Shown: in pieces, positions 5,921 through 55,529 of the stretch
Position numbering within the stretch: the first letter of the stretch is position 1
Layout of the letters: each line of letters begins with the position of its first letter
Assembly (NCBI GenBank): GCA_964016885.1
Contig: OZ024748.1
Location: 28,644,001-28,708,000, forward strand
Direction of reading: 5' to 3'
DNA: 64,000 nucleotides
From: Eledone cirrhosa
Taxonomy: Eukaryota
The notes under the pieces: model-generated
What the model was told of the DNA's origin: nothing
What the model saw: the letters and a program-made list of their open reading frames with translations, nothing else
Database searches by the model: none
Program-made: the position numbers and the translations under genes

Positions 5921-5998
5921 ATTACCTCATTACCAGAGGTTTCCCGAATGAGGCGAATACGAAATAAACGACTTCATTCGTTCGTCAGACGAGGCAAT
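5921..5998 (-). ncRNA. Type-I hammerhead ribozyme
   Basis: 10-bp stem I attgcctcgt/atgaggtaat; CTGACGA; stem II cgaatga/tcattcg; GAAA; stem III acc-tct-ggt; GUA cleavage triplet. Confidence 0.85.
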
Positions 5999-6789
5999 GT
6001 AAAACATGGGCAAATACCTAGAAAAACACATCAAGAAAATCAAAAAAAGATATAGATAAATGAAATAGAAATTGAAATATATAAAAATCTATCAAGAAAT
6101 ATAGTTAGGTGTGTGTATATGTATGTATATACGCTCACAGATGTGCATATATGTATATGCGCACATGTATGTGTATAGTGAGAAAGTGTGCGTAATTCTA
6201 AAATTTAGGGCAAATGTATCTATATGTCTGTATTATACAGACAGAAATGGTTACATCGTAAATATATGAATATGAAGGCGCGCGCATAAAACGCCTGCAC
6301 ACTCGTACACTTAGATGCGGAAAGAAAGGAGGTAAGGGAGTGTAATAATTAAAAGAAAAGTATCAGTCTCGATATATTTATAAAAATATAATAACGATAA
6401 ATTAGAAAGAAAAGATATTAGAAAGAAAAGATATTAGAAAGAAAAAATTAAAGAAAACAAAAAAAGGGGGGTACATACATACACAGACACGCGTGTCTCA
6501 CAAAAGAAATGTAAAAATAATTATGCTTATATACACACGCGCACTTACACTTCCATACGTTCGATACGTACATACACACACACACACACACATACTTATA
6601 CTCACGCATATAAACCTGTTTGCATGCCCACGTATGAAACTGAGTAAGTAAAAAAAGGGAAGGGGGGGGGGAGAAGAAAAAAGGAACAAAACATAAAACC
6701 GAGATGTCAAAAACACGGATATAAAGACACATACACATACGCATAACATATACATACACACACAAACACCTGTACACACACACATATAT

Positions 6790-6842
<53 letters not shown>

Positions 6843-7229
6843 TACATACACGCACGCGCGCGCACATACGTAGTCACTCATGTACATATATAAAAAGTAT
6901 ACACACATTAAGGCGTTCAGCCATATTGAAATGTGGATAAATAAGTACAAATATAAAATTGTAAGATAGGCTGCGCAAAAATAAAATAAAAATAAAAATG
7001 AAAAATATATCTGGATTGAAAAACACAAAAGACAAGTGTAATCAGTTAGTGGAAGAAAAAGGGAAGTAAAAGAAGGGGAAGTAAAAAATAGAAAATAGGA
7101 AGTGGAATGGAGAATAAAGGGGGGGGGGGTGCAGTAAAAATAAATAAAAGTGAAAATAAATGAAATTATTGACAAGGATAAAAATGAAAGTAAGTCAGAA
7201 AGGGTAATTAAAAAGAGATTAATAAGAGT

Positions 7230-8576: not shown

Positions 8577-8939
8577 TAAAAGGGTCTGAGTAATAGATGG
8601 GTAGAAATCTACGACGTCAAATTGGGTGAATCTAGAACTGATTTTGTTTTTAATATTATTAAACCAATGTACTACGGAAGAGCTATTTATCCATTGGAGT
8701 AATTTAGACTTACTTCTAATGTGTGTATTTAATTTATTTAAATTTTTTTTGCTGGGTTGATTAATCTACAACTTAGCAGGTTGATTAATCTACAGTCTTA
8801 GCAGGGTTGATTAATCTACAACTAGGGCGATTAATAAAGTCGGGTTTATGATCTTTAAGGGTGATATACGCAGAACGTTTAGCAAGTTTTTCTGTCCTAT
8901 TATCTATTTTTTAAGAAACAGCTAATTCTTTAGCTGAGG

Positions 8940-18732: not shown

Positions 18733-20427
18733 TAATAGACAATAGATAATGAAATATAACAGGTAAATATTTACCGATAAATACCGATAAAATAAAATAA
18801 AAATAAATGAGCGTATAGCAAATATACGATAAGATGTATAGAGATATAGGCAATTCAAATACATACAGCAATATAATATTACATATTAATATTTCAACAC
18901 CAAACATATAATTGCAAGGGAGAAAGATTTAAATCATATTTACTCAATATATTCATCGACACAAGTGACAAAGGATAGGAAAGACAGACAGAAGCAACAA
19001 ATTATAGCAAAACAAAACAAAAAGAAAAACAAAAACGCGTAGGCACAACAAACTGTTAGGTGAAAATTAATGATACAACTATTCAAAGTCAAATAACTGA
19101 ATCGAAACCCTTATTAATTTCAATTAATTTATTAAAAGTTAAATAAACATTATGGTACACTCCATTTGGAACAAAGTTTAAGTCACTAATGCCGATAGAA
19201 ATTAAGATATTCCAATAAATGAGCGAATACATTCATCGAATATATATTTAATTTCCGTTATGACGACTAATGTTATCCAAAGTAAAGATTCCAATAAAAA
19301 CTATGGTGGACAAAAAGGAACAGAAAGAAGTAAAACTATGGAGGACAAAAAGGAACATAAAGATATAATATATATATTCAATAAAGAAAAAAATTAAGTG
19401 TAGAAAAAATGAAGTTCATTAACCGTAGATGTAGAAGACTAAAATTAAACTATTAGTTAGTCAAGGAGACAATAAGATACACTCCAACTAGGGATGAATA
19501 TAAAGATAGAAATATATAAGTCAACAAAGGATGAGTATAAAGATAGAGATATAATAATGGACAAGGGACTAAATAGGCTAAATAAGCTAAAAAAACAACT
19601 AGAAAACTAAAAATCAATAAACCGAAGAAAACTAATAATAATAATAATAAACTAAAATGATAAGGAATCCAAACAGCTATTGAATACTAATACGACACAA
19701 ACAATTGTGTTATACATATAACTAAACATCCACACACATATACATATTCACAAAAAATATATATCTACAAATATAACCACAGATACAAAACCCTATACAC
19801 ACAGAACCACTCACGTGCTAAACTTTCACATACCTACCAGCCCAAGAGAGTGTGTGTATCAATTCGCCAATGATGATGAAGTATCTACGTCCAGCTATAG
19901 AAGACCCCATCCTGTATAGACACCATAACTCACAGAAAAGAGTAAGTGGTATATTAAGAAACATAAAGAATATAAAAATTTTTTAAAAAATATAAAATAT
20001 AAAAAATATCTAGACAAGACGTCTAAACCAGAATAGTAAAGTGAGATTCCGAAAAATCAACTACCTGAGCTTTTAGGTTTATAATAGAAGAAGGAATTAG
20101 AGATAGCATGCGGACAGGATGAAAAGATTTCCGATTTTCTATTTAGTAATACATTTTTAGAGAAAATTATACAATGGGTTTCTAGAATGCAAAGATTACA
20201 GAATTTAGCGTGGGTGGAATAATGGTTAGAATAGGATACAATACGCCAATGCAGACTGTACGGTATACCGGTCCCTTTCAAATCCCAAATTTGATGCGCC
20301 AAAGAAGTTGAGTTTTTAAATTTAATATATTTAAAGTTAGAGACATGCAAATTAAACCTCGTTTTTTTGCAAATTAAACCTCGTTTTTTTTTTGCAAATT
20401 AAACCTCGTTTTTTTTTTGTCTTTTCC

Positions 20428-20472
20428 TTGCTCTGAAGAGTCCTAATTACTGGGACGAAACATTGTCAGCGA
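20428..20472 (+). ncRNA. Minimal type-I hammerhead (copies 17984-18028 minus; 60972-61009 plus)
   Basis: ttgct-CTGAAGA-gtccta/tgggac-GAAA-c-att-g-TC-agcga. Confidence 0.85.
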
Positions 20473-20695
20473 TTAAAGATTTTTAATGTATTAAAGGCTT
20501 CTTTGTTGATTTATATAATTTTTTCGGCTCTGTTTGATAACATTGAGCTATCTCTTGTACTGTCATTTCTCTAATGCGACGAGTGTGTTTGACTCTAATG
20601 CACTCAAGTGTTTTTATCTTATGTATGTATGTATGTATGTATGTATGTATGTATGTATGTATGTATGTATGTATGTATGTATGTATGCATGTATG

Positions 20696-30600: not shown

Positions 30601-31020
30601 GACTTTGAAGAGATATCTGCACAAGGAGATCATAGCAGCATATGCTTGTGCGACACATATGCTGCTCTCTAAGTATCAACAACCAGAATCCGATGACAAG
30701 TAGATGCAGGTAACTGTATCAACCGCAGCTGTTTCAGAGTGTTCTTCTCTCAAGAAAAAAAAAGGTTTTCCCAGATAAATAACTAGGTAAAAAAGTAGTT
30801 TAAAAGTTAAAAGTTAAAAAGTTTAAAGTTCAAATATTAAAAGTTTGAAAGTTTAAAAGTAAAAAAAAAAAATACATATATACATACATACATATGATAC
30901 ACAAAAAACAGCAACAACGAGGACAATAACAACATTAACAATAACAATGAAATTAAAAGCATCAACAACAACAATAGCAACACTAAGAGTAATATCAACA
31001 AATTCAAACACAAATATAAA

Positions 31021-31472
31021 TAATTGTTTCTACTTTTGGCACAAGGCCAGCAATTACCCAGTGCATTACTGGTACTTTATTTTATCGACCCCGTAAGGAT
31101 GAAAGGCAAAGTTAACCTCGGCGGGATTTGAACTCATAAAGGGAGGTAACTCTATGCTTCAAAGCATGGCGTCCGACCCTCTACCGAAACTGCCAATCCA
31201 CCGCCTTACATATATATATAATATAAATAATATAAATAATATAATAATATAAATAATGACAACCTAGCACTAACCCTAACACTAACACTAATCATAACTG
31301 TTTCTATTTTAGGCACAAGGCCGCAATTATCCAGTACATTACTGGTACTTTATTTTATCGACCCCGTAAGGATGAAAGGCAAAGTTACCCTCGGCGGGAT
31401 TTGAACTCAGAATGGCAAGGGCCGTAACTCTATGCGTCAAAGCATGGTGTCCGATAGTGCCAATCCACCACC
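31021..31472 (-). mobile_element. Two tRNA-derived SINE copies (31021-31207, 31297-31472)
   Basis: family sequence on minus strand. Confidence 0.85.
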
Positions 31473-31801
31473 ATAATTAACTCTAACTAACCATAACTAA
31501 CTCTAATCATAACATTGGTGATTATGATTGTGGCGATGATAGTGATGGTATAATGGTGTTGGTAGTAGTGTTGAAAGTGGTGATGTTTATGGCGTTGGTG
31601 GCGGTGGTATGGTGTTGGTTGTGTTATCAGAAGGTGTTCAGTGTAGTGTTTATAAAAGTGATAGGGATCCCTCACAATAAACAAATATTTCGGTGTCGGC
31701 CTGTTGTCAATTCTCGAATTGCATATCTTTTATTCTTTAGATCCGTGGCACAGACACATATATAATCATACACACAGACATAAACGTATACATACATACA
31801 C

Positions 31802-31910: not shown

Positions 31911-31950
<40 letters not shown>

Positions 31951-32559
31951 GATAATTTAATATATCTACTAACATAAGCGTACAGATGTACGCTAATGCC
32001 AGCAAATACACAGGTTATGTCATAGTACCTAGGTGGTTCAATGCAGGAGAATGCAGAACAATAATATATAAGACGTAAAATAAGAAAATTTCTTTAAAAA
32101 AATTTTTTTTTTTTAAATTAACTTACTTAAATTTTCACTCCAACTAATTAGTTTCTGCAATGGGATAAAGACAGTTACGTAATGAACTGTTGAGAATTTC
32201 ATTGCGTCATCAGGGAGGTCATTCTCAGCCGAGTCTCCAGGCGATGCGCGGACACTGGGGACTCATATAAAAATAATAATAATTCGGCAACTGGAACAGC
32301 TATCGAGGACTGGATTCCAGCCACTGAAAATTCTCACTGCCACTGATCATATGGCCGATTCTAAAGAATCAATCACGTGACACAGAGGCTAGTTAGTAGG
32401 AATGGGATGGTAAGATGACAGACGCCTACTAACACCCCCCCCCCCCCAAAAAAAAAAATTTTTAGAAGTGGTTTTGGCAGGTTTGCTCGACAAATCAGTG
32501 ATTTGGAGATAAATATAGATAATTTAATATATCTACTAACATAAGCGCACAGATGTACG
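31951..32559 (-). mobile_element. Non-coding hammerhead element with 42-bp terminal direct repeat (period 567 nt), retrozyme-like
   Basis: gataatttaatatatctactaacataagcg(t/c)acagatgtacg at 31951 and 32518. Confidence 0.7.
32138..32217 (-). ncRNA. Type-I hammerhead ribozyme
   Basis: ctcc-CTGATGA-(gcaatg/cattgc)-GAAA-ctaattag-TT-ggag; palindromic stem III. Confidence 0.8.
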
Positions 32560-32639
32560 TTGATTTATGTAAATATCTTTGAAGCTTTACACATATATGC
32601 ATGTATGTGTGTATATATGCTCTCCAGCTATCTATTTAA

Positions 32640-34145
32640 AGCTGTATATAGCTATGGTGCGGCCACACTTAGAATTTGCATCACCAGTCTGGAGCCCCTA
32701 TCTTGCTCAGAACATTGACCTCCTGGAAATTGTTCAGAGACATGCAACCAAGTGAATACTTTCCATCAGGCATCTACCATACTCTGAACGCCTTGATTCC
32801 CTGGGCATTGAAGCTCCGACGTCTGGCAACTTCGTCCGGTTGATGACCATCCTAACCGTACTTCGTCCTCACCGAGACCTATCTCAATCCCTCCCACTTG
32901 GAAGCTGAGGTGAAAGTGAAGAATTTCAAAGCTATCCATGCAGATCGCGCTGGCAGAAGAAAGTGTGGGGCTGCCATTTTTGTACATGATTCTTTTTCGA
33001 CAGAGGCTAAGAACTTATTTTCCAATGAATACTGTAAAGCAGTCACTGTGTACAGTAAAACCAACAACTTAATAGTAGCTGGACTCTATAGGCCACCCCA
33101 AACGCCTCTACCATGCTTCAAGGAATGCCTCAACAGCATAATGTGTTTCATCCAACAGTGACACCGTGGCAACATCTTAATGGTGAGAGACTTCAACCTC
33201 CCCAGTGTTGACTGGTCCACAAACAGCTTGATACCAGGTTTTTCCCTCTCAACCCTTGACAAGCAGGTAGTAAAATCGCCTCTTGACTTCATGGATGAGT
33301 TTTTCCTGTTCCATTCACACACCCACTAACATCAAAAAATCATGGCAGTCATTTGTAGACACTGTAACAAATGTATGTGCAAAACATACCCCATTAAGAT
33401 CTGTAAAGAAATCTAAGTGCAGAATCCCTAGAAATAGAACACTTATCAGAAAAATTAATACAAAAAAATCAACAAACTGAAATACTGCCAGCAGCAACAC
33501 ACCCATTTGAATGCCATTACATCACTAGAATCGAAAAAACACAACCCCCAAAACAGCATGATGTCTATCATCAACAATCAAAAAAGCTGAAGAGGTCTGG
33601 ACCATTAAGAAAATCAAAGTGTTCTTTTCATTTACGAAAAAACACACAGTCACTGGCTCCACTGTTGGCCCTCTAGTTGATGAAAATGGCACTCTCCAAG
33701 ATAATGCTAAAACCATGGGTGAGATACTGCAGAAAAAACACTGCTCTGTTTTCAGCAATCCCGATATGGCTGATCTGGGCTGTATCAGTGATGTTAACCC
33801 CCAACGCACTATATTGGACATAATGTTTGGCGCCCCTGCTGTCTTAGCGGCAATAAAAGATACTAAACACAATTCAGCGGTAGGCCCCGATTGGTTCCCT
33901 GCTTGGGTCCTGAAGGTGGGTCGACACCAACTTGCATCTCCTCTTGCTAATCTGTGGAGGAACTCACCGGATACTAGATATATACCAGAAAACTTCCTAT
34001 CCCAGTCTGTTGTCCCAGTTTTCAAACAGGGAAACAAATCCCTTGCTGTGAATTACCGTCCAATCTTACTCCCCTCTCATATCATCAAGGTATTTGAGAG
34101 GGTGGTGAGATCACGAATAACTCACTTTCTTGAAAGCAACAATCG
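32640..34145 (+). pseudogene. CR1/L2-group LINE fragments (RT C-terminal piece, then deleted APE and RT N-terminus)
   Basis: VRPHLEFASPVWSPYL..VQR; GAAIFV, GLYRPP, DFNLP.VDW; GPD, VVPVFKQG, NYRPI.L.S..KVFE. Confidence 0.8.
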
Positions 34146-42142: not shown

Positions 42143-42271
<129 letters not shown>

Positions 42272-42273
42272 CA

Positions 42274-42311
<38 letters not shown>

Positions 42312-42410
42312 TGTATATATATATACATATAACCACTCAGCCACGCGTTTATTATAATGCTCGGTGTGTTTGTAAACAAGCATCCCGTATTAAGCCGTAG
42401 TGTCCAGCAA

Positions 42411-42615
<205 letters not shown>

Positions 42616-42620
42616 TATAC

Positions 42621-42693
<73 letters not shown>

Positions 42694-43222
42694 AAAGAAT
42701 AGAGGTGTAACACACAAGTTATTATATATTGGTAAACGGAATAGAAAATGCTGACAAATTGTTCACAGTTGAAAAATGGTTTAATTAGGAATAAAAGAGT
42801 ATTAGTGATTGTATGGGTTAGTATTCAGTTGTGGTTTTAAGTTTTTAAATTTTTACCGGTTGCGCATTTCTAAATGCTTTTCAAAAATAATTTTGAGATA
42901 GAGTGTCCGTGCTGTTTGCTCTGATCTGATTAGTTTGGGGAATTCTACCTGTTTTTATGTTAAAAAAGTGGCTCCAGCGTTATTTTTGTGTTGCAAAAAT
43001 GCTTGTGGTCAAAACAATTTTGATTGGTCGGTAGAGGTCATGTGAATGTAAAAAGTTGATTTTGCGCCAAGACTGTTTTTATGTTAAAAAAGTGGCTCCA
43101 GCAAAAATTCTTGGTCAAAACAATTTTGATTGGTCGGTAGAGGTCATGTGGATAAAAAATTGGTTTTGCGCCAAGATTGAGAAATGACTCTTTCACAACA
43201 AATATGTGTGTGTGTGTGTGTA

Positions 43223-43309
<87 letters not shown>

Positions 43310-43416
43310 ATGTGTGTGTGTATGTGTGTGTGTGTGTGTGTGTGTAGTAGTAGTAGTAAGGTGTTCGATGCTGCGACAATGGCCAGCAGCGATGTGTGTC
43401 AAATGGCTATTAAGAT

Positions 43417-43529
<113 letters not shown>

Positions 43530-44005
43530 GCAGAGTCATTCGAAGGTCAAAAGATATTTTTCAGCTTTTGTCTTATACGGAGAAGTGCGTGTGTGTGTGT
43601 GTGTGTGTATAAGTCTCTTTGTATGTTGATGTACGCGTGTGTATGTGTTTGTGTATATATATGTGTGTGTGTGTGTGTGTGTGGGTGGACCAGTATTTTT
43701 TGCCCCCTGGTAAAATGGTGTACATTATTCGATTTTTTCAGTAAAATCGGTTCTCTTAATAGAACATCAAAAATCTTAACAATAAAAGGTGCGAAATGAT
43801 ATTCACTATATATATATACACACATACATATATTCACTACATATATATATATATATACATATATACATACATATATATGCACATATATTTTTTTGTATTG
43901 CACCATAGAGCATGTGTGTTTACGTGTGTCATTGTGTTTATATGTGGGTAGAGATGTGTGCTGATGTAGGTATGTATGTTGACGTGTGTATGTTGTGGGT
44001 TCGTC

Positions 44006-45191
44006 TTAGGGAGAAGTGTTTAGATGGGGTCCGTATTTGTTAATGAAGTAAGATTCCTTGCTGATGCGCTGGGTGTGGGTGGAATTATCTTTAAATTTGT
44101 AGAGGGGAAAGATTCTGAAGTTGGGATGATTTTGGGCGGCACAGGTATCAATGTGTTCACTCAGTGGTATTTTCCTGTATTCCCGTATTTTAATTTGGGA
44201 TCTATGGACAGTCATGCGTTGGCGGAGGCTGTTTTGGGTCTGGCCTATGTATTGTTCTCGACAACCTGAACAAGTTAATACATATATTAGATTTTCCGAT
44301 GCACATGTGAAATTGTGTTTTACTATAAAACGTTGTCCATCTTTGAAATAGAATTCCGAACCCTCTATTAGGTTGATGCAAATGCCACAGTTGGGTCTAT
44401 CGCATTTTTTTACTGTGGGTTTCGTTGTTGTGGTTGGCAGTACTTTGGCATGTGTTAAGATGTTTTTCATTGACTTGGATTGTCTTTTGCTCTTTATGAT
44501 ATCGTGTGTTCGTAGAATTTGGTTCATTCTATGGTCCTTTTTCAATACAGGGATGTTCTGGAGGATGGTGTCAAAGGCCTCATTGTTGAGGGGGTTGTGT
44601 GTGGAGATGTATGGAAGAGCTTTTAGTTTTGGTTGATTTACTTTAGGGTGTCTAAGGTCCTGGGTACTGAGTTTTAGGGCACGTTGGATTCCATTGTCAA
44701 TTAGTGATGCAGGGTAGTCCCTGCCTATGAGTGTGTCCTTTAGTTCTTGTAGCCGTAAGTAGCAGATGTTTTTATTGGAGACTATAGTACAGATTCTCTT
44801 GGCTAAGTTGTAGGGAATATTCATTTTAACGTGTCTAGGGTGGCAAGAGTTGAAGGGGAGATATTGCTTGGAGTCTGTGGGCTTGTAGTATATGTCTGTT
44901 TCTATTTTTTTGTTATGGATCTTAATGAGGATGTCGAGGAAGGGGAGTTGTTGATGGCTGTATTCCATCGTGAAGTTAATATTTGTGTTGAGCCCATTTA
45001 TAAGGGTGTGAAATTCTTTAAGTTTTTCGATGTTTTCGTGCCAAAGGATGAAGCAGTCATCTAGATATCGCTTCCAGTTCCTTTCAATGTGTAAGTGGAG
45101 GGTTTTTCCAAATTTGTTTAGGACTTTAGTGTAGAGGGTGATTTCCAGGTATCCCATGACTAGGTTGGCATAAGTAGGGGCTGTTTTCGTT
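44006..45191 (-). pseudogene. Inverted 5'-truncated duplicate of the PLE RT/GIY-YIG ORF
   Basis: protein matches the C-terminal part of the 46576 ORF apart from one K/N change seen. Confidence 0.92.
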
Positions 45192-45211
45192 AAATCAACA
45201 CCAACCTATCT

Positions 45212-46438
45212 TTGCTGGTCGACAAACTTGACTCCACAAATAAGGAAACCGCCACCGGATACAAACCCTCCGAAATCGGCGACAAACTCCAAAACCTTTG
45301 CGATACTATCCAAACTATGTTCACTACTACCAACCCAGGAAAAACCAACGAAGAACCATGTGAGATTGATTCACACAAAATGAAAATTCGAACAATTCCA
45401 AAATGGAACAAATCCCTCAGAGACAGAAAGTTCTCATTCTGGAAGATGATACAAAATCACAACAAAGCAGAGATATATGAAAAATGGCTTAACTCAACCC
45501 CTCTAACTCTCCCCCGTAAACTACAAATAAAGTCCATTCCAAATGAACCCGAACCTCAAAGACACCTTAGGGAAAGAATGGCATTGGAAAAAATGAAGAC
45601 AGAAATTGAACTTCTTAAACTGAGGGCCCAGACAAATGAGGAAAAAATCAAAACCATCGATGAAGAGATCCTCCTGGAAATCAATAACAAAACTGAAGGC
45701 CCCAAGGTAGAGAAGATCTCCAAATTATGGAAAGGGGACTGCAACAGAGAAGAACTGAAATCCCTTCAACGCCGGGGAAAAAGTGCCGCTTGGTTCCTAC
45801 ACTATGAATCGACTTTTCAAACGGATTACACCTCCAATAACCCGTTCATAAAAATAGGAAAACCCATAACTGAACCGCACAACAACTTCTCAAACCCCCA
45901 AGCCTCAAACAAACGAAGAAGGAAGCACCACACCGAAGATGAACTTCCCAACCTCGCTACCATAAGAAGGAACAAAAACCCAAGAAATCATCTCCCCCAG
46001 AATGACATTTACAACTTTCCCCCTTCAAGGAGACACCATACCAAATCACTCAACTACTACGCGGATTCCTCATCGTCAAACATAGGGAAAAGATACCACC
46101 GCCATGATAGATGCAACAACTTCCCCGCTTCAAGGGGACAGCAAGGTAATTACCATTTTCTCAACTCTCACTTCCACAATACACAACAAACCCACACCAC
46201 ACGATACAACCAACAACGTAGGCCACTTATAACACCACAATACAACATGGCACATAGAAACACACACCCATACTCGCAGTACAGGAACACCCCATTCAAT
46301 CTACAACCACCAACCCGAACCACATTTTACAACAACAAGGAATATAACAAACACAGGAGACCACTTAACATCAGCAGACAACCCCTCTACCCCAACCATT
46401 TTTTAGACACAGCACACAGATACAGGCAAACAAAATAA
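45212..46438 (+). CDS. PLE ORF1 (coiled-coil plus basic low-complexity tail), probably 5'-truncated at the inversion junction
   Basis: 408-aa open frame; heptad-like ERMALEKMKTEIELLKLRAQTNEEKIKTID; R/H/N-rich C-terminus. Confidence 0.7.
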   Translation: MLVDKLDSTNKETATGYKPSEIGDKLQNLCDTIQTMFTTTNPGKTNEEPCEIDSHKMKIRTIPKWNKSLRDRKFSFWKMIQNHNKAEIYEKWLNSTPLTLPRKLQIKSIPNEPEPQRHLRERMALEKMKTEIELLKLRAQTNEEKIKTIDEEILLEINNKTEGPKVEKISKLWKGDCNREELKSLQRRGKSAAWFLHYESTFQTDYTSNNPFIKIGKPITEPHNNFSNPQASNKRRRKHHTEDELPNLATIRRNKNPRNHLPQNDIYNFPPSRRHHTKSLNYYADSSSSNIGKRYHRHDRCNNFPASRGQQGNYHFLNSHFHNTQQTHTTRYNQQRRPLITPQYNMAHRNTHPYSQYRNTPFNLQPPTRTTFYNNKEYNKHRRPLNISRQPLYPNHFLDTAHRYRQTK

Positions 46439-48723
46439 CACAAGACAGGGAGGAGAAACCGATAGTAATAAAAATTATCAATCTTATTAGTGCAGAACCA
46501 ACACCCAACCTTATCAACTTACTCTCCAAAGGTCTTAAATTCACACCGACCCCACTACGTCCTAACTACTATGAAATGAAGGAAGACATCACAGACTTCT
46601 GTAGAAAGTTACGACTTAGTGAACAACTATTCGACCAGTACAATGAGGATGAATCATTAGCCAGAAATAGAAGCAATTACACCCCTTCAAAAGGTAGAAA
46701 TAAAATCCTGGACGAATTCTGTGAACACATCACAAACTTCCCTTACCAACACTTGCACAGACAAAAACACAAGCCAAACCTCAACAAGAAAGAATGGGAA
46801 GAATTAAATAGATTAAAAACCGACAGAACCATTACAATTAAAGAGGCTGATAAAGGGAGTACAGTAGTCCTAATGGAGACAGAATTCTATATCAACTTAG
46901 CGCTCTCCACTTTGGAAAACGAAACATACTACGAAAAGGCTGAACACTACAATCAACAGAAAATTATGAGAAACCTAAAAACTCTAATCAACCAATACAA
47001 AGAAGGACTCACTAACAAGGAATTCAGCTTCATCACAGACTTCACAAGTAAATCCAGCCTTTTCTACGGTATCCCTAAAGTACATAAAAGCGAATCAATC
47101 AGTAAGGCATGCAAGGAAGCCACAGACATAGTCATCAATGTCCCCTCACCCAATGATCTCAAATTAAGACCTATAATAGCAGGCCCCGCTTGCGAAACGC
47201 ACCGTCTTAGCAACTTCATTGATACCCTTCTCAAACCCTTCCTCAAGCACATCAAAAGCTATATAAGGGACGACCTAGATATGCTCAATCACCTCCCTAA
47301 TATGCCACTTTCTGAACAAACCCTACTAGTGACGTTCGATGTAGTCAACCTATACTCCAACATCCCCCACAACCTAGGAATAGAAGCTATCCAATTCTGG
47401 CTGGATAATTTCCACAATGAACTCCCACAACGCATCAAAAAAGAATTCGTGATAGAGGAACTCAAATTTATCTTGGAGAACAATTACTTCGTTTTCAATA
47501 ACAAACCCTACACGCAGAAATCTGGGACCGCTATGGGAACGAAAACAGCCCCTACTTATGCCAACCTAGTCATGGGATACCTGGAAATCACCCTCTACAC
47601 TAAAGTCCTAAACAAATTTGGAAACACCCTCCACTTACACATTGAAAGGAACTGGAAGCGATATCTAGATGACTGCTTCATCCTTTGGCACGAAAACATC
47701 GAAAAACTTAAAGAATTTCACACCCTTATAAATGGGCTCAACACAAATATTAACTTCACGATGGAATACAGCCATCAACAACTCCCCTTCCTCGACATCC
47801 TCATTAAGATCCATAACAAAAAAATAGAAACAGACATATACTACAAGCCCACAGACTCCAAGCAATATCTCCCCTTCAACTCTTGCCACCCTAGACACGT
47901 TAAAATGAATATTCCCTACAACTTAGCCAAGAGAATCTGTACTATAGTCTCCAATAAAAACATCTGCTACTTACGGCTACAAGAACTAAAGGACACACTC
48001 ATAGGCAGGGACTACCCTGCATCACTAATTGACAATGGAATCCAACGTGCCCTAAAACTCAGTACCCAGGACCTTAGACACCCTAAAGTAAATCAACCAA
48101 AACTAAAAGCTCTTCCATACATCTCCACACACAACCCCCTCAACAATGAGGCCTTTGACACCATCCTCCAGAACATCCCTGTATTGAAAAAGGACCATAG
48201 AATGAACCAAATTCTACGAACACACGATATCATAAAGAGCAAAAGACAATCCAAGTCAATGAAAAACATCTTAACACATGCCAAAGTACTGCCAACCACA
48301 ACAACGAAACCCACAGTAAAAAAATGCGATAGACCCAACTGTGGCATTTGCATCAACCTAATAGAGGGTTCGGAATTCTATTTCAAAGATGGACAACGTT
48401 TTATAGTAAAACACAATTTCACATGTGCATCGGAAAATCTAATATATGTATTAACTTGTTCAGGTTGTCGAGAACAATACATAGGCCAGACCCAAAACAG
48501 CCTCCGCCAACGCATGACTGTCCATAGATCCCAAATTAAAATACGGGAATACAGGAAAATACCACTGAGTGAACACATTGATACCTGTGCCGCCCAAAAT
48601 CATCCCAACTTCAGAATCTTTCCCCTCTACAAATTTAAAGATAATTCCACCCACACCCAGCGCATCAGCAAGGAATCTTACTTCATTAACAAATACGGAC
48701 CCCATCTAAACACTTCTCCCTAA
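46348..48723 (+). CDS. PLE reverse transcriptase plus GIY-YIG endonuclease (first ATG 46576; frame open from 46348)
   Basis: IINL..LLSKGLKFTPTP, ADKG, YGIPKVHK, RPII, FDVVNLYSNI, GTAMG, RYLDD, FLDI, SCHP, CDRPNCGIC, LIY..CSGC..YIG. Confidence 0.95.
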
Positions 48724-49117
48724 GACGAACCCACAACATACACACGTCAACATACATACCTACATCAGCACACATCTCTACCCACATATAAACACAATGA
48801 CACACGTAAACACACATGCTCTATGGTGCAATACAAAAAAATATATGTGCATATATATGTATGTATATATGTATATATATATATATATGTAGTGAATATA
48901 TGTATGTGTGTATATATATATAGTGAATATCATTTCGCACCTTTTATTGTTAAGATTTTTGATGTTCTATTAAGAGAACCGATTTTACTGAAAAAATCGA
49001 ATAATGTACACCATTTTACCAGGGGGCAAAAAATACTGGTCCACCCACACATACACACACACACACACATATATACACAAACACATACACACGCGTACAT
49101 CAACATACAAAGAGACT

Positions 49118-49180
<63 letters not shown>

Positions 49181-49235
49181 TTCTCCGTATAAGACAAAAG
49201 CTGAAAAATATCTTTTGACCTTCGAATGACTCTGC

Positions 49236-49278
<43 letters not shown>

Positions 49279-49364
49279 ATCTTAATAGCCATTTGACACA
49301 CATCGCTGCTGGCCATTGTCGCAGCATCGAACACCTTACTACTACTACTACTACTACTACTACT

Positions 49365-49403
<39 letters not shown>

Positions 49404-49405
49404 CT

Positions 49406-49438
<33 letters not shown>

Positions 49439-49766
49439 ACACACACACATATTTGTTGTGAAAGAGTCATTTCTCAATCTTGGCGCAAAACCAATTTTTT
49501 ATCCACATGACCTCTACCGACCAATCAAAATTGTTTTGACCAAGAATTTTTGCTGGAGCCACTTTTTTAACATAAAAACAGTCTTGGCGCAAAATCAACT
49601 TTTTACATTCACATGACCTCTACCGACCAATCAAAATTGTTTTGACCACAAGCATTTTTGCAACACAAAAGTAACGCTGGAGCCACTTTTTTAACATAAA
49701 AACAGGTAGAATTCCCAAAACTAATCAGATCAGAGCAAACAGCACGGACACTCTATCTCAAAATTA

Positions 49767-49803
49767 TTTTTGAAAAGCATTTAGAAATGCGCAACCGGTA
49801 AAA
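49767..49803 (+). ncRNA. Variant minimal hammerhead (U3-A8, C13) in PLE 3' UTR; copy 42851-42887 (minus)
   Basis: ttt-TTGAAAA-gcat-ttagaa-atgc-GCAA-ccgg-TA-aaa. Confidence 0.6.
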
Positions 49804-49921
49804 ACTTAAAAACTTAAAACCACAACTGAATACTAACCCATACAATCACTAATACTCTTTTATTCCTAATTAAACCATTTTTCAACTGTGAACAATTTGT
49901 CAGCATTTTCTATTCCGTTTA

Positions 49922-50017
<96 letters not shown>

Positions 50018-51066: not shown

Positions 51067-53456
51067 ATCGGGCTCACATACATTCTCTGTGCGTGATTTG
51101 GCTCAGCTCAGCCAATCAGCGCCAGTAGAAGAGGATGTATCCCTACGCGTTCGGAGGGAGAAATAGCCCGCAAAGATTTGAGGACGCTATCACTTCCAGG
51201 CTAGACCGTGTTAAGGTAAACAACACTTGTTCTTTTGCTCCGTAAGCACAAACAATATGTAACGACAAAACATTACCTACGAGCCTGACCAAACGCCTTC
51301 AGCCAGCCGCCCGTATTTTCTCTTGTAATCTTAATTGAATTATTTCATTATTCTTGGCATGCCAGCTTAATTCACTTCTTAACCTTTATTAATAAATAAT
51401 GTAAAAACAAGCTAAAATTCGTTGTCGATATTCCTATCGTATCTTTCTACCAAACCTGGTTCCTCGTGGCAACAACACAACAATTCTCTAAATATTCTTC
51501 TCCGCTAAATTCGAATTTATACTTAAACCAAATTGGTGACAATATATCTACACCAAATGTGTGACCCTCGACGATTAAGTATGAACACGCAGCCTATTTG
51601 AATTCGCCAGTCGTTTTAACGGAAATGTGGAGTGGCTTAACATTTGGAATATTCGAATCGGGTTTCTAGACTCGCTTAGCGTAAGTCCATAAAATTCATA
51701 ATATTCCATTTGTTGAAGCACGCGACCTACACAATATTTCTGTTATAACTTTCATGGTAACACAAGTAACTCACGCATACAGACGAACACAAAAATACTA
51801 CACAAAAGAAAGAGTTTTTTCGACGTCTAACAAAAAATTTCTCTTTTGGATTGAAAATTATTATTGCGAGCATAGTTTGATAAAAACAAAAAACAAAAAG
51901 AATTTAAAAAAAAAAAAAAAGAAATTCTCTGGATATAGAATTTTGCTCGGCTTATTCAGTTTTTCCATGGCACAGAAATGGAGTATTTCCATTTCGAATC
52001 AATACCTTTCACTAAAATCGGGCAATTGGACTGATCAAATTCACATTCATGCCAGTTTTTACAAATCGGAGGTGAGCAAAGTGAGACAGGTGCACAAAAA
52101 GAGTGGGGTGAGCAAAGTGACCAGGAAGATTTTGATGGCAGAAAATGTACAGAACTTCTGACTTTGGCTAGATTGTGCAACTTTGGTCCCCCATCAAATT
52201 GCCCAGATCCCACTGCACGTCTAAAGCTAGCTAAACGAATGCACAAGGCCATACATGAACTTTCACCTGATTTGACTGTGTCCCAAATTCGGACAAAAAT
52301 GGAAATCTTTGAGCAGTGTAAAGGATTCCATAGGGACAACATCTATTGCATAGGACAGTCTGACTGCACAAATGGACTTGAACTGATTCGAAGTATGGCT
52401 CCTCACTCTCCTCGCATCCGTACAATTCTGACTCCTATGACATTTCAATCTTGGAAGGAAATTGGTCAATGTTTGATGATCTAGTAAATCCCCAAAACAT
52501 GTCCAACAATCTGCTAAGCCGTTTGAATGAAATAGTGGAAAATGAAAATGAGAGCTTGCATTCAGAATCCTCAATCATGGCCAATTTTGCATCCATTATC
52601 AAACATTTTAATAAAGAGATTCAAAAAATGAAAATCAACTCCTGTGACATTTGCAAACAACGAGAATTAGATGCTAAACTCAAAGTCTGGGAGGATTGGA
52701 GCCCTTTGACAAATCCCTATCTCCTGGAAACCATTCAACAAAACTACTCTCTACCATGTACGATTTGCTCTACATGTAGAAATAGTCTTGTCAAAAAGTC
52801 GATACCATCATTGGCTTCAATCAATGGCCTAGAAGTGGTCAAAATTCCAAATATGTTGTCAAAGTTGAACATGTATGAGCAGATTTTGATCCAAATGGCC
52901 AATTGCTTCATCAATGTCATTAAATTGTCACCCTATCGTTTCAAAGGTGCACCATCACATCTAGTGGCTGCTATTAAAGGAATAGCAACTCACATGCCAC
53001 TACCAGTAGAAAACACAATCAATCATGTAATGAAAAAACTCCCATCGAATCAAAATGATGCATTTGAAATAATTGTTGATAGTGTTCCAACTAAAAAGGG
53101 CACAATTTGGCGATCGCTAGTGAATATGCAAAATGTCTTTGATGCCTTGGAGTGGCTGAAAAACAACAATGACATTTACAATGACATTTTGATAGACAGA
53201 ACCACAAATTTAGAGGACATTGTTACATGCACTGGTGAAAATGTTTCCATCAATTTTCCACACATTCTCACACAAACTGGTGCTGAAACAGTCTATGAAC
53301 ACCATACTGTACAGCAAATCAAGCCTGCACTCCCAAATCAAAAGGACCTTGAACTGTTTCGCATGAAACGAGTTGAAGGTACTATTCTTCCGGACAATGA
53401 TCCAAACCTGGATCTGATGTGCTTCCCCCCACTTATTCCCTAAAGGAAAATTTGGA

Positions 53457-55337
53457 ATGATGCACATGAACAGACCCCATGGTAGAGTAAAGCCCTATAT
53501 GTTCATCAGAAACAGACTCAGACATGAGGACCCCCGGTTTCGTAGAGACAGTCAGTACATTCTCTCCAATTTGGACAAGGCTGACAAAAGAGCACTAGAT
53601 TCTGGCATTTATGCCGTAATGAAATCACTCAAAAGTCCAAAATTGACACTTGCTCAATTTTATAAAAGATTGGAAGACAATGATGAACAATTGGAAAGTG
53701 GTTTGTCAATGATGATGGCGAATGTTCCTGGAACAAAGCCATTTTGGGAACGCAAGTGCTCCGACTTGAATGCCATAGATGAGAAATTCGGTCCTGCCCA
53801 TTTGTTTATCACTCTTTCATGTGCTGAATACTTTTGGCCAGGCTTGAGGGAATTTTTGGAAAAACTCAATGAAGACATTGCAAATGTTGAAACAAGGCCG
53901 ATAGGGAATCTCTGTGCAAATGATGTTGTGGCTGTCAGTGAGTACTTTCACCATCGTTTTAGTGCTGTTTTTCATGATGTAATTTTAAATAAAAAAGGCC
54001 CATTTGGGGAAATTATTCATTACTTTTGGCGACTCGAGTATCAACAACGTGGTGCTCCTCACATTCACCTTAAAGCCTGGGTTCGGGACAGTGTAATTTT
54101 TGACAAAGATCCTAAAGAAAAAAACAAGCAATTTATTGAACGCTGCATTACTTGCCGGCTACCATCCCCTGTGGCCAGCCCAAACTTGGCAAATCTCGTT
54201 AGACGGTTCCTAGTCCATACTTGTGGCAAAGCATGCTGGAGAATAGTGAGGAGAGGGAAAAATGTTCGTAAAAAATGCCGTTTTGGTTTTGCACGTGCAG
54301 TGGGGCCATTTCGGTTTTTCTCAGTTTCTGAAAGTATCAAATCACGAAAAAATGGTAATGGGACAAAACAACTGTACCAATTGGAAAGAAAAGAATCAGA
54401 AAAGTACATAAATGACTACAATCCATGTTTACTTCTAGCCTGGCAAGCAAATATAGATGTGCAATACATTGGTGAGAATAGTATGATTTTGAATAGATAT
54501 GTCACCTGCTATCAGACTAAGGCTGAAAAAAATGAGACTGAGGGAGTGTGGGCGAATCTGGATCATTCCAAAACAAAATATGGGAAATACAAAAGTGCTG
54601 GACTGCAATTGCTTGGGAAAAGGGATACAGGAGGGTATGAAGCTGCTGACAAACTTTTGGGGCATCATTTTTACGGGTCATCAGATCATGTTATTTGGGT
54701 AGGTGCAGACATTCCCAGTAGGCGCGGCCGCAGATTGAAATCTCAAAATGATCTCGATGAACTGAGTGAACACTCAATGGACTTGTTCTACGAGAACATG
54801 GTGGAAACTTTTTACAAAAACCGGCCAAAATTCCTGAAAGATTCCTCCTTATATGAAGTTGCCAGCAAATATGAGAGGACACAAAAAAAACCTGTTGACA
54901 AAGATGTGGCTACAAAAATGAAATTGCTCAATGACAAGGGGTATTTTCATAGTGTAAAAGAGCGGGTAGTTAAAGCACCGAATATACAGCTCAAAAATGA
55001 CACAAAAGAACGTTATTACCACAATCTTCTAATGCTGTTCAAACCCTGGCGCGATGAGGACAAAGATTTATTGGGGGGCTGCAAAACATTTGAAGAGTCC
55101 TTTCATCTGTGTGCAAACAATTTGCCTGATATGGTGAATTTTCAAAATGTGAGGAAAAAAATCACTGATGCAGTTGAGATGGGGAAGAGGTTGGAGAAGG
55201 AGGGTGAAAAGGAGGGAGAGGTCGGAGAAGGACGGAGAGAAGAGGGGGAGAAGGAGGCAAGAGATGAGGCTGGTATTGATGTTCCCCAAATTCGAGATGT
55301 AGATGAAACTGCTCTACAGACAAAAGAAACAGCTTAA
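53457..55337 (+). CDS. Helitron Rep (HUH endonuclease) segment
   Basis: Rep motifs 1-3 present. Confidence 0.88.
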   Translation: MMHMNRPHGRVKPYMFIRNRLRHEDPRFRRDSQYILSNLDKADKRALDSGIYAVMKSLKSPKLTLAQFYKRLEDNDEQLESGLSMMMANVPGTKPFWERKCSDLNAIDEKFGPAHLFITLSCAEYFWPGLREFLEKLNEDIANVETRPIGNLCANDVVAVSEYFHHRFSAVFHDVILNKKGPFGEIIHYFWRLEYQQRGAPHIHLKAWVRDSVIFDKDPKEKNKQFIERCITCRLPSPVASPNLANLVRRFLVHTCGKACWRIVRRGKNVRKKCRFGFARAVGPFRFFSVSESIKSRKNGNGTKQLYQLERKESEKYINDYNPCLLLAWQANIDVQYIGENSMILNRYVTCYQTKAEKNETEGVWANLDHSKTKYGKYKSAGLQLLGKRDTGGYEAADKLLGHHFYGSSDHVIWVGADIPSRRGRRLKSQNDLDELSEHSMDLFYENMVETFYKNRPKFLKDSSLYEVASKYERTQKKPVDKDVATKMKLLNDKGYFHSVKERVVKAPNIQLKNDTKERYYHNLLMLFKPWRDEDKDLLGGCKTFEESFHLCANNLPDMVNFQNVRKKITDAVEMGKRLEKEGEKEGEVGEGRREEGEKEARDEAGIDVPQIRDVDETALQTKETA

Positions 55338-55529
55338 TACAGATCAAATATCCATATACAATCTAATTGTATCAGCAATTGAAAAACAGGAATTGCATTG
55401 GAATTCGGAAAAACCACTACCAAGGTGCAGATGTGATGATTGCCCACAATTTCTCAAATTTGTCTCTGGTGTAGGAGGTACAGGGAAAAGTTTTCTCATT
55501 GATATAATTTCTGACAAAGTTACTCAAAT

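What the first reader, a model, noticed from the sequence alone, without database searches (positions are those of the whole stretch)
31951..32559. Third non-coding HHR unit: 567-nt period with 42-bp terminal redundancy
Seen: a 42-bp direct repeat (1 mismatch) bounds an ORF-less segment with a minus-strand hammerhead whose stem III is palindromic (actaattagt). One monomer plus a short overlap is expected if RT goes slightly more than once round a circle. No sequence similarity to the other two units was seen, so at least three independent families are implied within 64 kb.
Basis: partly seen in the sequence, partly recalled or inferred. Interest (0 to 1): 0.75.

Follow-up and report, generated by a model that had tools for sequence, protein, structure and literature searches.

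The report
Hammerhead-bearing Penelope-type tandem retroelement copy
This is one ordinary copy of a very abundant, non-coding 567-base repeat that carries a hammerhead-ribozyme motif and sits at a (TA)n microsatellite; its 42-base end repeat is the start of a second, cut-short unit, and the copy was likely made by the reverse transcriptase of a Penelope-like retrotransposon.

Summary
A 42-nt direct repeat (41/42 identical, 567 nt apart) bounds an ORF-less unit, and the unit carries a minus-strand hammerhead-like motif.

The 42-mer is not a target-site duplication. It is the first 42 nt of the unit, and in other copies it lies inside head-to-tail junctions.

I mapped 68 arrays at 45 genomic sites.
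- All 68 start at an alternating-AT stretch of the unit (position 1, 10 or 114), nearly always next to (TA)n.
- They run 0.1 to 19 units and end at variable positions.
- 25 of the 45 sites carry a second, inverted array placed head-to-head.

This is the published insertion anatomy of Penelope-like elements (PLEs). An intact-looking PLE in the same window (42723-49931) shows the same anatomy at (TA)n.

No Rfam model detects the hammerhead, and it has an unpaired C and A at the base of helix II. It is nevertheless not a chance match: 300 shuffles gave 0 hits. It is conserved in three subfamilies, with two compensatory pairs in helix II, and it fits the published PLE-type hammerhead.

Three things are not shown: whether the RNA template was a circle or an uncleaved multimer, whether the ribozyme cleaves, and which PLE is the partner.

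Verdict: a new member of a known kind (animal non-LTR retrozyme, a non-autonomous PLE derivative). Interest is moderate.

The parts
31951..32517 (-). One complete 567-nt unit. The RNA sense is the minus strand, and the plus strand is the inferred cDNA strand.
   Evidence: The polarity is inferred from fixed starts and variable ends in 68 arrays. It agrees with the hammerhead strand and with stronger folding of the minus-strand RNA (z -6.75 against -3.44).
32518..32559 (-). The first 42 nt of a second unit. In RNA sense this is the 5'-truncated upstream unit of a partial tandem. It is the 'terminal redundancy'.
   Evidence: 41/42 identical to 31951-31992. In other loci the same 42-mer continues into further units.
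32138..32217 (-). Type I hammerhead-like motif of the PLE kind. Predicted cleavage lies between 32142 and 32141.
   Evidence: 0 hits in 300 shuffles. It is identical to the family majority in 18 copies. It is conserved in subfamilies A, B and C with 2 compensatory pairs. No Rfam hit.
31961..32011 (-). Long hairpin (16 + 7 bp) close to the RNA 3' end. The cluster of array ends at unit positions 28-47, including this copy's end at 42, falls inside it.
   Evidence: the 135-nt stretch folds at -37.1 kcal/mol, z -4.92, with 0 of 200 shuffles as good; 9 of 68 ends against 2.4 expected; two wobble-preserving changes in subfamily B.
32513..32517 (+). ATATA stretch (unit 563-567), directly before unit position 1. 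Inferred annealing site for the (TA)n DNA primer. This is start site 1, the one used by this copy.
   Evidence: 36 of 68 arrays start at unit position 1 or 2. AT stretches of the unit are listed.
32064..32070 (+). ATATATA stretch (unit 114-120). This is the alternative start site 2, not used by this copy.
   Evidence: 31 of 68 arrays start here, merged with the flanking (TA)n.
31927..31950 (.). (TA)n microsatellite abutting the start of the unit, preceded by (CA)n. Inferred target and primer.
   Evidence: The same flank appears in nearly all arrays.
42723..49931 (+). Autonomous-looking Penelope-like element. [quoted passage not shown] Both outer 3' ends abut (TA)n. It is the candidate partner, by inference only.
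   Evidence: It has no DNA similarity to the unit and no Rfam hammerhead.

Best explanation
The segment is one copy (1.07 units) of a high-copy, non-coding, hammerhead-bearing tandem retroelement lying at a (TA)n microsatellite. The copy was likely made by the reverse transcriptase and endonuclease of a Penelope-like element (PLE), so it would be an animal 'non-LTR retrozyme', meaning a non-autonomous PLE derivative.

Shown:
- The 42-mer is the beginning of a second unit.
- The family has fixed starts at AT stretches next to (TA)n, variable ends, head-to-tail units, and frequent head-to-head inverted partners.

Inferred mechanism:
1. The minus strand is transcribed.
2. A PLE endonuclease nicks a (TA)n tract.
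3. The freed ...TATA-3' end anneals to a UAUAU stretch of the RNA. For this copy, that stretch is the one that templates unit 563-567.
4. The RT copies rightwards on the plus strand through a full unit and 42 nt into the next one.
5. It stops inside a strong hairpin, and the cDNA end is joined to the flank.
6. Where both strands of the self-complementary (TA)n prime, two arrays meet head-to-head.

The template had to be longer than one unit, so it was either an uncleaved multimeric transcript or a circle. My data do not decide between these.

The hammerhead is a conserved PLE-type motif that is predicted to cleave. It would probably do so weakly, as a dimer or with protein help. Its cleavage was evidently not needed for copying.
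For: Family and tandem nature. The 609-nt query gave 113 scored matches at 85-100% identity from 39 scored candidates out of 1835 first-look candidates. Full-length matches overlap by exactly the 42 nt.

Census, covering 68 arrays at 45 sites:
- Starts: 36 at unit position 1 or 2, 31 at position 114, 1 at position 10. All are at alternating-AT stretches. The unit has only four such stretches of 5 nt or more.
- Two further arrays with atypical starts (264, 163) were set aside, so the count is 68 of 70.
- Reading the 20-nt start flanks listed by eye, 64 of 68 hold 8 nt or more of alternating TA, 3 are (GA)n and 1 is merely AT-rich.
- Ends range from 28 to 567, and lengths from 0.1 to 19 units.
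- 25 of 45 sites have an abutting inverted array.

Published PLE hallmarks match:
- 5' truncation, partial tandems, an inverted 5'-truncated copy, (TA)n as a preferred target of Naiads, and non-autonomous families that make multi-copy head-to-tail insertions (PMC8557442, passages).
- A purified PLE protein cleaves and extends both DNA strands, prefers AT-rich DNA, starts reverse transcription at two internal RNA sites, and uses unprocessed RNA (PMC11167929, main text).

Same anatomy in an autonomous PLE 10 kb away in this window, with both outer ends at (TA)n. That PLE family is very abundant and young: 32065 first-look candidates, 131 scored at 98-100% amino-acid identity, many with an open 784-aa frame.

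Strand. The minus-strand RNA folds at -162.3 kcal/mol, z -6.75, against z -3.44 for the plus strand.

Hammerhead.
- Chance is excluded.
- The motif equals the family majority.
- It is conserved in subfamily B (about 86% identical) and family C (about 73-80% identical; 26 of 36 distinct copies intact).
- On 5 sequences of the 3 groups, 13 of 13 pairs are always paired, 2 helix II pairs changed on both sides (C-G/A-U and U-A/G-C), and 1 wobble occurs in helix I.
Against: - No sequence similarity between the unit and the window's PLE. That PLE has no detectable hammerhead and no comparable 3' hairpin. The partner is therefore inferred only from shared target and anatomy. Other PLE families of this genome were barely sampled: 30 loci yielded only a diverged family-C copy.
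- The hammerhead gets no Rfam hit even at E<=10. It has C and A where G10.1-C11.1 normally pair, so activity may be low or nil.
- 64 of 68 arrays read through the predicted cleavage site (113 crossings). Only 1 array ends at position 191 and 1 at 192.
- The unit (567 nt) is longer than the about 170-400 nt given for animal retrozymes (PMC7229834, abstract).
- The covariation rests on one split (A/B against C), so on few events.
- The sample is the best-scoring candidates of each search, not a random draw.
- The clusters of ends were chosen after seeing the data.
Confidence: 0.8

Rival explanations
1. Circle-specific version (the first reader's, and the published retrozyme model). The hammerhead cuts multimeric transcripts into 567-nt monomers. 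A host RNA ligase circularises them. The RT then runs round the circle: 1.07 turns here, and up to 19 turns elsewhere.
For: - Arrays of more than one unit are the rule: 44 of 68 are 1 unit or longer, and one has 19 units.
- RT starts are internal to any linear monomer and lie at AT stretches, as a circle would require.
- The RNA is strongly self-paired, as described for retrozyme circles (PMC7229834, passages).
- A conserved hammerhead is present.
Against: - Nothing here distinguishes a circle from an uncleaved multimer transcribed from the many tandem loci.
- Units within one array are no more alike than units from different arrays: 97.0-98.0% in 4 arrays against a mean of 96.7%. This test is uninformative in a burst-like family.
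- The end cluster at 28-47 is tied to position, not to turns.
- In the one PLE studied in vitro, hammerhead cleavage was not needed and unprocessed RNA was the substrate (PMC11167929).
- PLE-type hammerheads cleave poorly in vitro (PMC4209133).
Confidence: 0.35
2. The 42-mer is a long target-site duplication made when a single 525-nt element inserted.
For: Only this locus's appearance: one direct repeat at each end.
Against: The 42-mer is the invariant start of the unit at dozens of unrelated loci. It lies inside head-to-tail junctions, and other arrays end at 28 to 567 instead.
Confidence: 0.01
3. A DNA-level origin: a Helitron-type rolling-circle transposon or a satellite spread by recombination, with the hammerhead-like motif incidental.
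For: - Helitron ORFs lie in the same window (52382-57170).
- That Helitrons insert at A|T and can form tandems is recalled, not tested.
- One 19-unit array is more homogeneous (98.4%) than the family (96.7%). This could reflect unequal crossing-over.
Against: - The fixed end and variable end have the polarity of 5'-truncated reverse transcripts of the hammerhead strand.
- There are three alternative starts, all at TA microhomology.
- Head-to-head partners occur at 25 of 45 sites, as in the PLE next door.
- The unit ends I read do not look like the Helitron termini I recall (5'-TC and CTRR-3'); this is a recalled motif.
- Copies are dispersed over many contigs.
Confidence: 0.05
4. The hammerhead-like motif is a conserved RNA structure (for example a protein-binding or RT-recognition element inherited from a PLE terminal repeat) that no longer cleaves.
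For: - Non-canonical C and A at the base of helix II, and no Rfam hit.
- 64 of 68 arrays read through the site.
- Low in-vitro activity of PLE hammerheads, and protein-assisted cleavage in the anole element.
Against: - All invariant core letters are kept in three subfamilies that differ by up to about 27% (CUGAUGA, GAA, A15.1-U16.1, H17 not G).
- Helix II co-varies, whereas loop 2 is free to change.
Confidence: 0.3

Closest known systems
Animal non-LTR retrozymes (Cervera & de la Pena 2020, PMC7229834; abstract and passages read)
   Same: Non-coding, low-GC (37.6%) tandem repeats with a type I hammerhead on one strand. Arrays run from about 1 unit to large multimers. The RNA is strongly self-paired. 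They co-exist with autonomous PLEs.
   Different: The unit is 567 nt, against about 170-400 nt. The hammerhead is of the atypical PLE kind, not the canonical kind with loop-loop contacts. No RNA or circle evidence was obtainable here. Insertions show (TA)n targeting and head-to-head partners, which the passages I read do not describe for retrozymes.
Penelope-like element insertions (Craig et al. 2021, PMC8557442, passages; Goubert et al. 2022, PMC8969392, passages)
   Same: 5' truncation, partial tandems giving a pseudo-LTR, an inverted 5'-truncated copy, a microsatellite (TA)n target, and non-autonomous relatives that make multi-copy head-to-tail insertions.
   Different: There is no ORF. No sequence is shared with the PLE I could examine. 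(TA)n targeting was reported for Naiads (N-terminal endonuclease), whereas the window's PLE has a C-terminal GIY-YIG domain.
Poseidon PLE of the green anole, studied in vitro (Frangieh et al. 2024, PMC11167929; main text read)
   Same: Both DNA strands are cleaved and extended. The target is AT-rich. Reverse transcription starts at two internal RNA sites. Hammerhead cleavage is dispensable and the template is multimeric.
   Different: There the start sites are not homologous to the cut DNA and lie 30-40 nt apart (the 'tail'). Here the starts coincide with TA microhomology and lie 113 nt apart.
PLE minimal/atypical hammerheads (Cervera & de la Pena 2014, PMC4209133; passages read)
   Same: [quoted passage not shown]
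   Different: There is an additional unpaired A on the 3' side of helix II, and a 37-nt structured insert in loop 2.
Xenopus retrozymes related to PLE terminal repeats (Li, Clavereau & Pollet 2026 preprint, 10.64898/2026.07.22.740005; abstract and sections 14 and 16 read)
   Same: [quoted passage not shown]
   Different: Their link is sequence homology to pLTRs in vertebrates. Here the link is insertion anatomy and target, and no homology was found.

Membership tests
Hammerhead ribozyme, type I | Invariant core letters: C3 U4 G5 A6 N7 G8 A9, G12 A13 A14, A15.1-U16.1, and H17 not G. | tested here: met
   Read; scan. Kept in subfamilies A, B and C.
Hammerhead ribozyme, type I | Three helices around the core, supported by covariation. 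| tested here: met
   13 of 13 pairs are formed in 5 sequences. There are 2 compensatory pairs in helix II and 1 wobble in helix I. Few independent events.
Hammerhead ribozyme, type I | G10.1-C11.1 closing helix II directly on the core. | tested here: not met
   C and A occupy these places, and the G-C pair comes one step further out. An unpaired nucleotide on the 5' side is described for PLE hammerheads, but the 3' A is not.
Hammerhead ribozyme, type I | Match to the Rfam hammerhead models. | tested here: not met
   No hit at gathering score or at E<=10. For comparison, another motif at 20427-20473 scores 26.9 bits, E 0.0024.
Hammerhead ribozyme, type I | Site-specific self-cleavage. | not testable with these tools
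   No RNA run was listed. Needs in-vitro transcription.
Animal non-LTR retrozyme | Type I hammerhead within non-coding, low-GC tandem repeats lacking LTR, PBS and PPT. | tested here: met
Animal non-LTR retrozyme | Monomer of about 170-400 nt. | tested here: not met
   567 nt.
Animal non-LTR retrozyme | Expressed as linear and circular monomeric RNA. | not testable with these tools
   No RNA holder was listed. The runs laid are DNA-like contigs.
PLE-type insertion (non-autonomous PLE derivative) | Fixed 3' end, variable 5' truncation, and head-to-tail partial tandems. | tested here: met
   68 arrays.
PLE-type insertion (non-autonomous PLE derivative) | Adjacent inverted 5'-truncated copy. | tested here: met
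   25 of 45 sites. This window's copy has none.
PLE-type insertion (non-autonomous PLE derivative) | Two alternative internal RT start sites (the 'tail' signature). | tested here: inconclusive
   There are two main starts (position 1 with 36 arrays, position 114 with 31 arrays), but they lie 113 nt apart rather than 30-40 nt, and they sit at TA microhomology.
PLE-type insertion (non-autonomous PLE derivative) | AT-rich or (TA)n target. | tested here: met
   About 14-15 of the 20 single arrays also have TA repeats at the variable end (read by eye).
PLE-type insertion (non-autonomous PLE derivative) | Sequence shared with the terminal region of an autonomous PLE. | tested here: not met
   No similarity to the window's PLE. 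30 GIY-YIG loci gave none beyond a family-C copy lying nearby. Other PLE families were not surveyed.
Target-site duplication | The repeat is locus-specific flank sequence, absent from the element elsewhere. | tested here: not met
   The 42-mer is the start of the unit in all copies.

The most novel reading that the evidence does not exclude
This family is a natural record of how animal retrozymes integrate. At dozens of sites, a PLE enzyme primed on both strands of a self-complementary (TA)n tract. It annealed the TA end to one of three UAUAU stretches inside the RNA, telomerase-like, with GA/GATA stutter at the start in some copies. It then copied an uncleaved multimer or a circle. Hammerhead cleavage is not part of the copying step, and the hammerhead (a variant with an extra C.A step under helix II) serves another stage. 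If this holds, retrozyme mobilisation by PLEs can be read directly from genomic footprints, and (TA)n tracts are the landing pads that explain why several hammerhead families crowd into this window.
Probability: 0.45. Interest if true: 0.6.

Novelty: new member of a known kind. Interest (0 to 1): 0.42.

Why it matters
The link between animal retrozymes and Penelope-like elements rests so far on co-occurrence and, in frogs, on homology to PLE terminal repeats. The authors of the 2026 preprint state that the mobilisation mechanism is still to be characterised.

This family adds a different kind of evidence. Its insertions carry the whole PLE signature, namely 5' truncation, partial tandems, head-to-head partners and a (TA)n target, and an active-looking PLE in the same window shows the same signature. 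The family also shows starts tied to TA microhomology. That differs from the non-homologous starts seen in vitro for the anole element.

The family offers a well-defined substrate for experiments: a 567-nt RNA, a (TA)n target and a 784-aa PLE ORF. For genome annotation, the practical point is that such 'monomer plus short overlap' loci are partial tandems and not TSD-flanked elements.

Tried and rejected
- **Rfam.** No hammerhead was found for this unit at gathering score or at E<=10. None was found in the window's PLE.
- **RNA evidence.** No RNA holder was listed.
- **Reads.** The four runs that hold the stretch are contigs of DNA-like data. When laid they gave no bridging piece, no empty-site allele and no usable ends. 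Their summed depth is no copy number.
- **Circle against multimer.** I compared unit identity within and between arrays. Only 4 short arrays had two full units, and their identity (97.0-98.0%) is about that between arrays (96.7%). The test is uninformative.
- **Run-off at the cleavage site.** Only 1 array ends at position 191 and 1 at 192. A loose excess at 178-214 (11 of 68 against 4.4 expected) used a window chosen after seeing the data.
- **Partner by similarity.** Unit against window gave nothing. The 3' end of the PLE has no matching hairpin. 30 GIY-YIG loci led only to a diverged family-C copy.
- **Family C as a possible longer autonomous element.** The longer copies turned out to be inverted or tandem arrays of a homologous unit.
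- **Local MFE fold of the hammerhead region.** It is not the hammerhead fold and is not unusually stable (z 0.19). This is usual for hammerheads and is not counted either way.
- **RNAalifold on A and B**. It keeps only pairs that hold in both sequences, so it is not independent evidence.
- **Earlier notes of this scan.** None exist for this genome.
- **Pfam.** It gave nothing for ORFs 6498-8765 (minus strand) and 45194-46438, even at E<=1.

Full report
**1. The observation**

Positions 31951-31992 and 32518-32559 are 41/42 identical and 567 nt apart. The unit has no coding capacity: on a trimer the longest stop-to-stop frame is 95 codons and the longest ATG-started frame is 30 aa. Its GC content is 37.6%.

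The minus strand carries a hammerhead-like motif at 32217->32138. Its parts, in order, are:
- helix I, 4 bp
- CUGAUGA
- an unpaired C
- helix II, 6 bp (GCAAUG/CAUUGC), with a 37-nt structured insert
- an unpaired A
- GAA
- helix III, the palindrome ACUAAUUAGU
- U17

The predicted cut lies between 32142 and 32141.

A scan that demands this whole architecture found two sites in the window, and none in 300 Markov shuffles of 64 kb on both strands. Rfam, however, reports no hammerhead here, either at gathering score or at E<=10 on 751 nt. It does give a sub-threshold Hammerhead_1 hit to a different motif at 20427-20473 (26.9 bits, E 0.0024).

**2. The family**

In the window's own genome (about 3.0 Gb) the 609-nt stretch has 1835 first-look candidates. 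The 39 that were scored gave 113 matches at 85-100% identity. Full-length matches often overlap the next one by exactly the 42 nt. The 42-mer is therefore the beginning of the unit and lies inside head-to-tail junctions.

I mapped the unit on 30 loci and on 19 stretches fetched after a second search.

Rows set aside before counting:
- L009 (a duplicate of L008) and L023 (overlaps L006)
- the repeated copies inside L072 and L076 (local duplications)
- L070 and L077 (cut by a stretch end or by N)
- two inverted partners with atypical starts (L026 at 264; the partner of the 19-mer at 163)

That leaves 68 arrays at 45 sites. These are the best-scoring candidates of each search, not a random sample.

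**3. Anatomy**

I read each array in the orientation of the plus strand of the window.

- **Starts.** 36 arrays start at unit position 1 or 2, 31 at position 114 and 1 at position 10. These are three of the only four alternating-AT stretches of 5 nt or more in the unit: 563-567 (just before position 1), 10-15, 114-120 and 315-319.
- **Start flanks.** In the 20-nt flanks listed, 64 of 68 hold 8 nt or more of alternating TA. Three are (GA)n and one is merely AT-rich. I read this count by eye.
- **Lengths and ends.** Arrays run 0.1 to 19 units (median 1.2; 44 of 68 are at least one unit) and end anywhere from 28 to 567.
- **Inverted partners.** At 25 of 45 sites a second array abuts in inverted orientation. 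The variable ends meet in the middle, and both outer ends are canonical starts next to (TA)n.
- **Single arrays.** Of the 20 single arrays, about 14-15 also have TA repeats beyond the variable end (by eye). The window's copy does not.

Fixed start, variable end and TA microhomology mark the plus strand as the cDNA strand, and therefore the minus strand as the RNA. This agrees independently with the hammerhead's strand. It also agrees with folding: the minus-strand RNA gives -162.3 kcal/mol, z -6.75, with 0 of 100 shuffles as good. The plus strand gives z -3.44.

**4. What this anatomy is**

It is the described insertion structure of Penelope-like elements. The published features are:
- strong 5' truncation, partial tandems forming a pseudo-LTR, and an inverted 5'-truncated copy alongside
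- a microsatellite bias, with (TA)n named for Naiads
- non-autonomous relatives that give multi-copy head-to-tail insertions

These come from PMC8557442 (passages) and PMC8969392 (passages).

The one PLE protein studied in vitro (PMC11167929, main text):
- cleaves and extends both DNA strands
- prefers AT-rich DNA
- starts reverse transcription at two internal sites of the RNA
- does not need hammerhead cleavage
- is thought to use multimeric RNA from tandem loci

The window itself holds a matching autonomous-looking PLE. [quoted passage not shown] An inverted 5'-truncated copy sits upstream (ORF 44006-45205, minus strand), 100% identical over the C-terminal 299 aa. Both outer 3' ends (42723-42739 minus, 49915-49931 plus) run into (TA)n. 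That PLE family has 32065 first-look candidates, and the 131 scored were 98-100% identical, many with the open 784-aa frame. A reverse transcriptase with the right target and the right product shape is therefore present and looks recently active.

**5. The 42 nt**

In PLE terms this copy is a full unit preceded, in RNA sense, by a very short 5'-truncated unit. That is a minimal pseudo-LTR.

Ends at unit positions 28-47 recur: 9 of 68 against 2.4 expected (binomial 6e-4). This window was chosen after seeing the data, and ends below 25 nt could not be detected. Four of the nine arrays started at position 114 and are 0.85 or 1.87 units long. The stop is therefore tied to the place and not to 'just over one turn'.

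The place lies inside a 16+7-bp hairpin near the RNA 3' end (31961-32011). The 135-nt stretch folds at -37.1 kcal/mol, z -4.92. Subfamily B keeps the apical stem through two changes to G.U.

I infer that the RT tends to stall or switch there. An RNA 5' end at that place is an alternative I cannot exclude.

**6. Is the hammerhead real?**

- The window's motif equals the family majority in 18 copies.
- A second subfamily (B) is about 86% identical overall. Its own copies are 98-100% alike, with 1070 first-look candidates.
- A third family (C) is about 73-80% identical, with 2504 first-look candidates.
- Both keep every core letter, the unpaired C and A, helix III, and the 3' strand of helix I.
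- 26 of 36 distinct family-C copies have the intact motif.
- On five genomic sequences of the three groups, all 13 proposed pairs are formed in every sequence. Two helix II pairs changed on both sides (C-G to A-U, U-A to G-C), and one helix I pair became a wobble. Sliding the partners by 1-3 columns drops pairing to 32-54%.
- Loop 2 differs freely between families.

This is one evolutionary split, so the number of independent events is small, but it points to selection on the fold.

[quoted passage not shown] The extra A on the 3' side and the lack of a G10.1-C11.1 pair directly on the core are departures, and activity is untested.

**7. Circle or multimer?**

64 of 68 arrays read through the predicted cleavage site at least once, for 113 crossings in total. 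One array ends at position 191 and one at 192. The template was therefore uncleaved or re-ligated at that site.

I could not separate these two cases. Units within an array are no more alike than units of different arrays, and no RNA data were available. I put the circle-specific version at about 0.35.

**8. Comparison and novelty**

The unit works like, and in most respects is, an animal non-LTR retrozyme. That class is now argued to be non-autonomous PLE derivatives (PMC7229834; preprint 10.64898/2026.07.22.740005, abstract and sections 14 and 16).

It departs in three ways:
- size: 567 nt against about 170-400 nt
- the hammerhead is of the PLE kind, not the canonical kind
- no homology was found to the PLE I could examine

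I did not find, in the passages I read or in the listings of three searches, a description of retrozymes with (TA)n-primed starts and head-to-head partners. I did not read supplements, and most subscription papers are not held, so this is not a claim of absence from print.

I file it as a new member of a known kind, of moderate interest. It is a clean genomic footprint for PLE-type integration of a retrozyme, and a ready substrate for testing that.

Noticed in passing
window 42723-49931: A complete-looking Penelope-like element. [quoted passage not shown] Both outer ends run into (TA)n (a 545-bp AT tract at 42145-42689). Its family is very abundant and 98-100% identical in the genome. No hammerhead was found in it.
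   Followed up: partly
window 52382-57170 (+): Three consecutive ORFs with DUF6570, Helitron_like_N/Rep and PIF1-type helicase domains. This is a Helitron-like element.
   Followed up: no
window 20427-20473 (+); similar motifs at about 18023 (-) and 60975 (+); also 14788 (+): Other hammerhead-like motifs with a canonical GUCC...GGAC helix II. The first scores 26.9 bits (E 0.0024) against Rfam Hammerhead_1, below the gathering score of 34. None resembles the 567-nt unit.
   Followed up: partly
window about 5988 (-), and 5562 (-) / 11484 (-): Two more hammerhead-like families. The one at 5988 passes the strict architecture scan. Like the unit, it has a non-Watson-Crick step (A and G) between the core and a long helix II, and it ends next to (TA)n. 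Upstream ORFs 6498-8765 (-) have no Pfam match, even at E<=1.
   Followed up: partly
G000:C3:20669128-20679737 (L068/L069): A 19-unit head-to-tail array of the same family. It starts at unit position 1 next to (TA)n and ends at position 45 against an inverted partner. Its units are 98.4% alike on average, against 96.7% between loci.
   Followed up: partly
start flanks of arrays in L004, L008, L018, L072 (GATA repeats) and L006, L013, L017, L019, L020, L029, L075 (GA repeats): Between the (TA)n and unit position 1 (which begins GATA) some copies carry short GATA or GA repeats. By eye there are about 11 among the 36 position-1 starts and none among the 31 position-114 starts. This looks like reiterative copying (stutter) at initiation.
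   Followed up: no
window 31020-31475: Two tandem copies (spacing 273-278 nt, 84-95% alike) of a SINE-like repeat with a tRNA-like stretch lie just left of the microsatellites (families D4-D9). The flank right of the unit (about 32600-32820) also has very high summed contig depth, so it is another repeat.
   Followed up: no
L176:551-1145 and L176:1990-2110: Other palindromic, head-to-head elements embedded in (TA)n tracts. One of them has the CUGAAGAG...GACGAAA hammerhead-like motif also seen at window 5562 and 11484. (TA)n tracts appear to collect several such families.
   Followed up: no
arrays ending at unit 253-291 and at 489: There are further clusters of array ends. 11 of 68 lie just upstream (in RNA sense) of the hammerhead, and 3 lie at position 489 at the edge of the C/G homopolymer run. 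They may be RT pause sites. The ranges were chosen after seeing the data.
   Followed up: no
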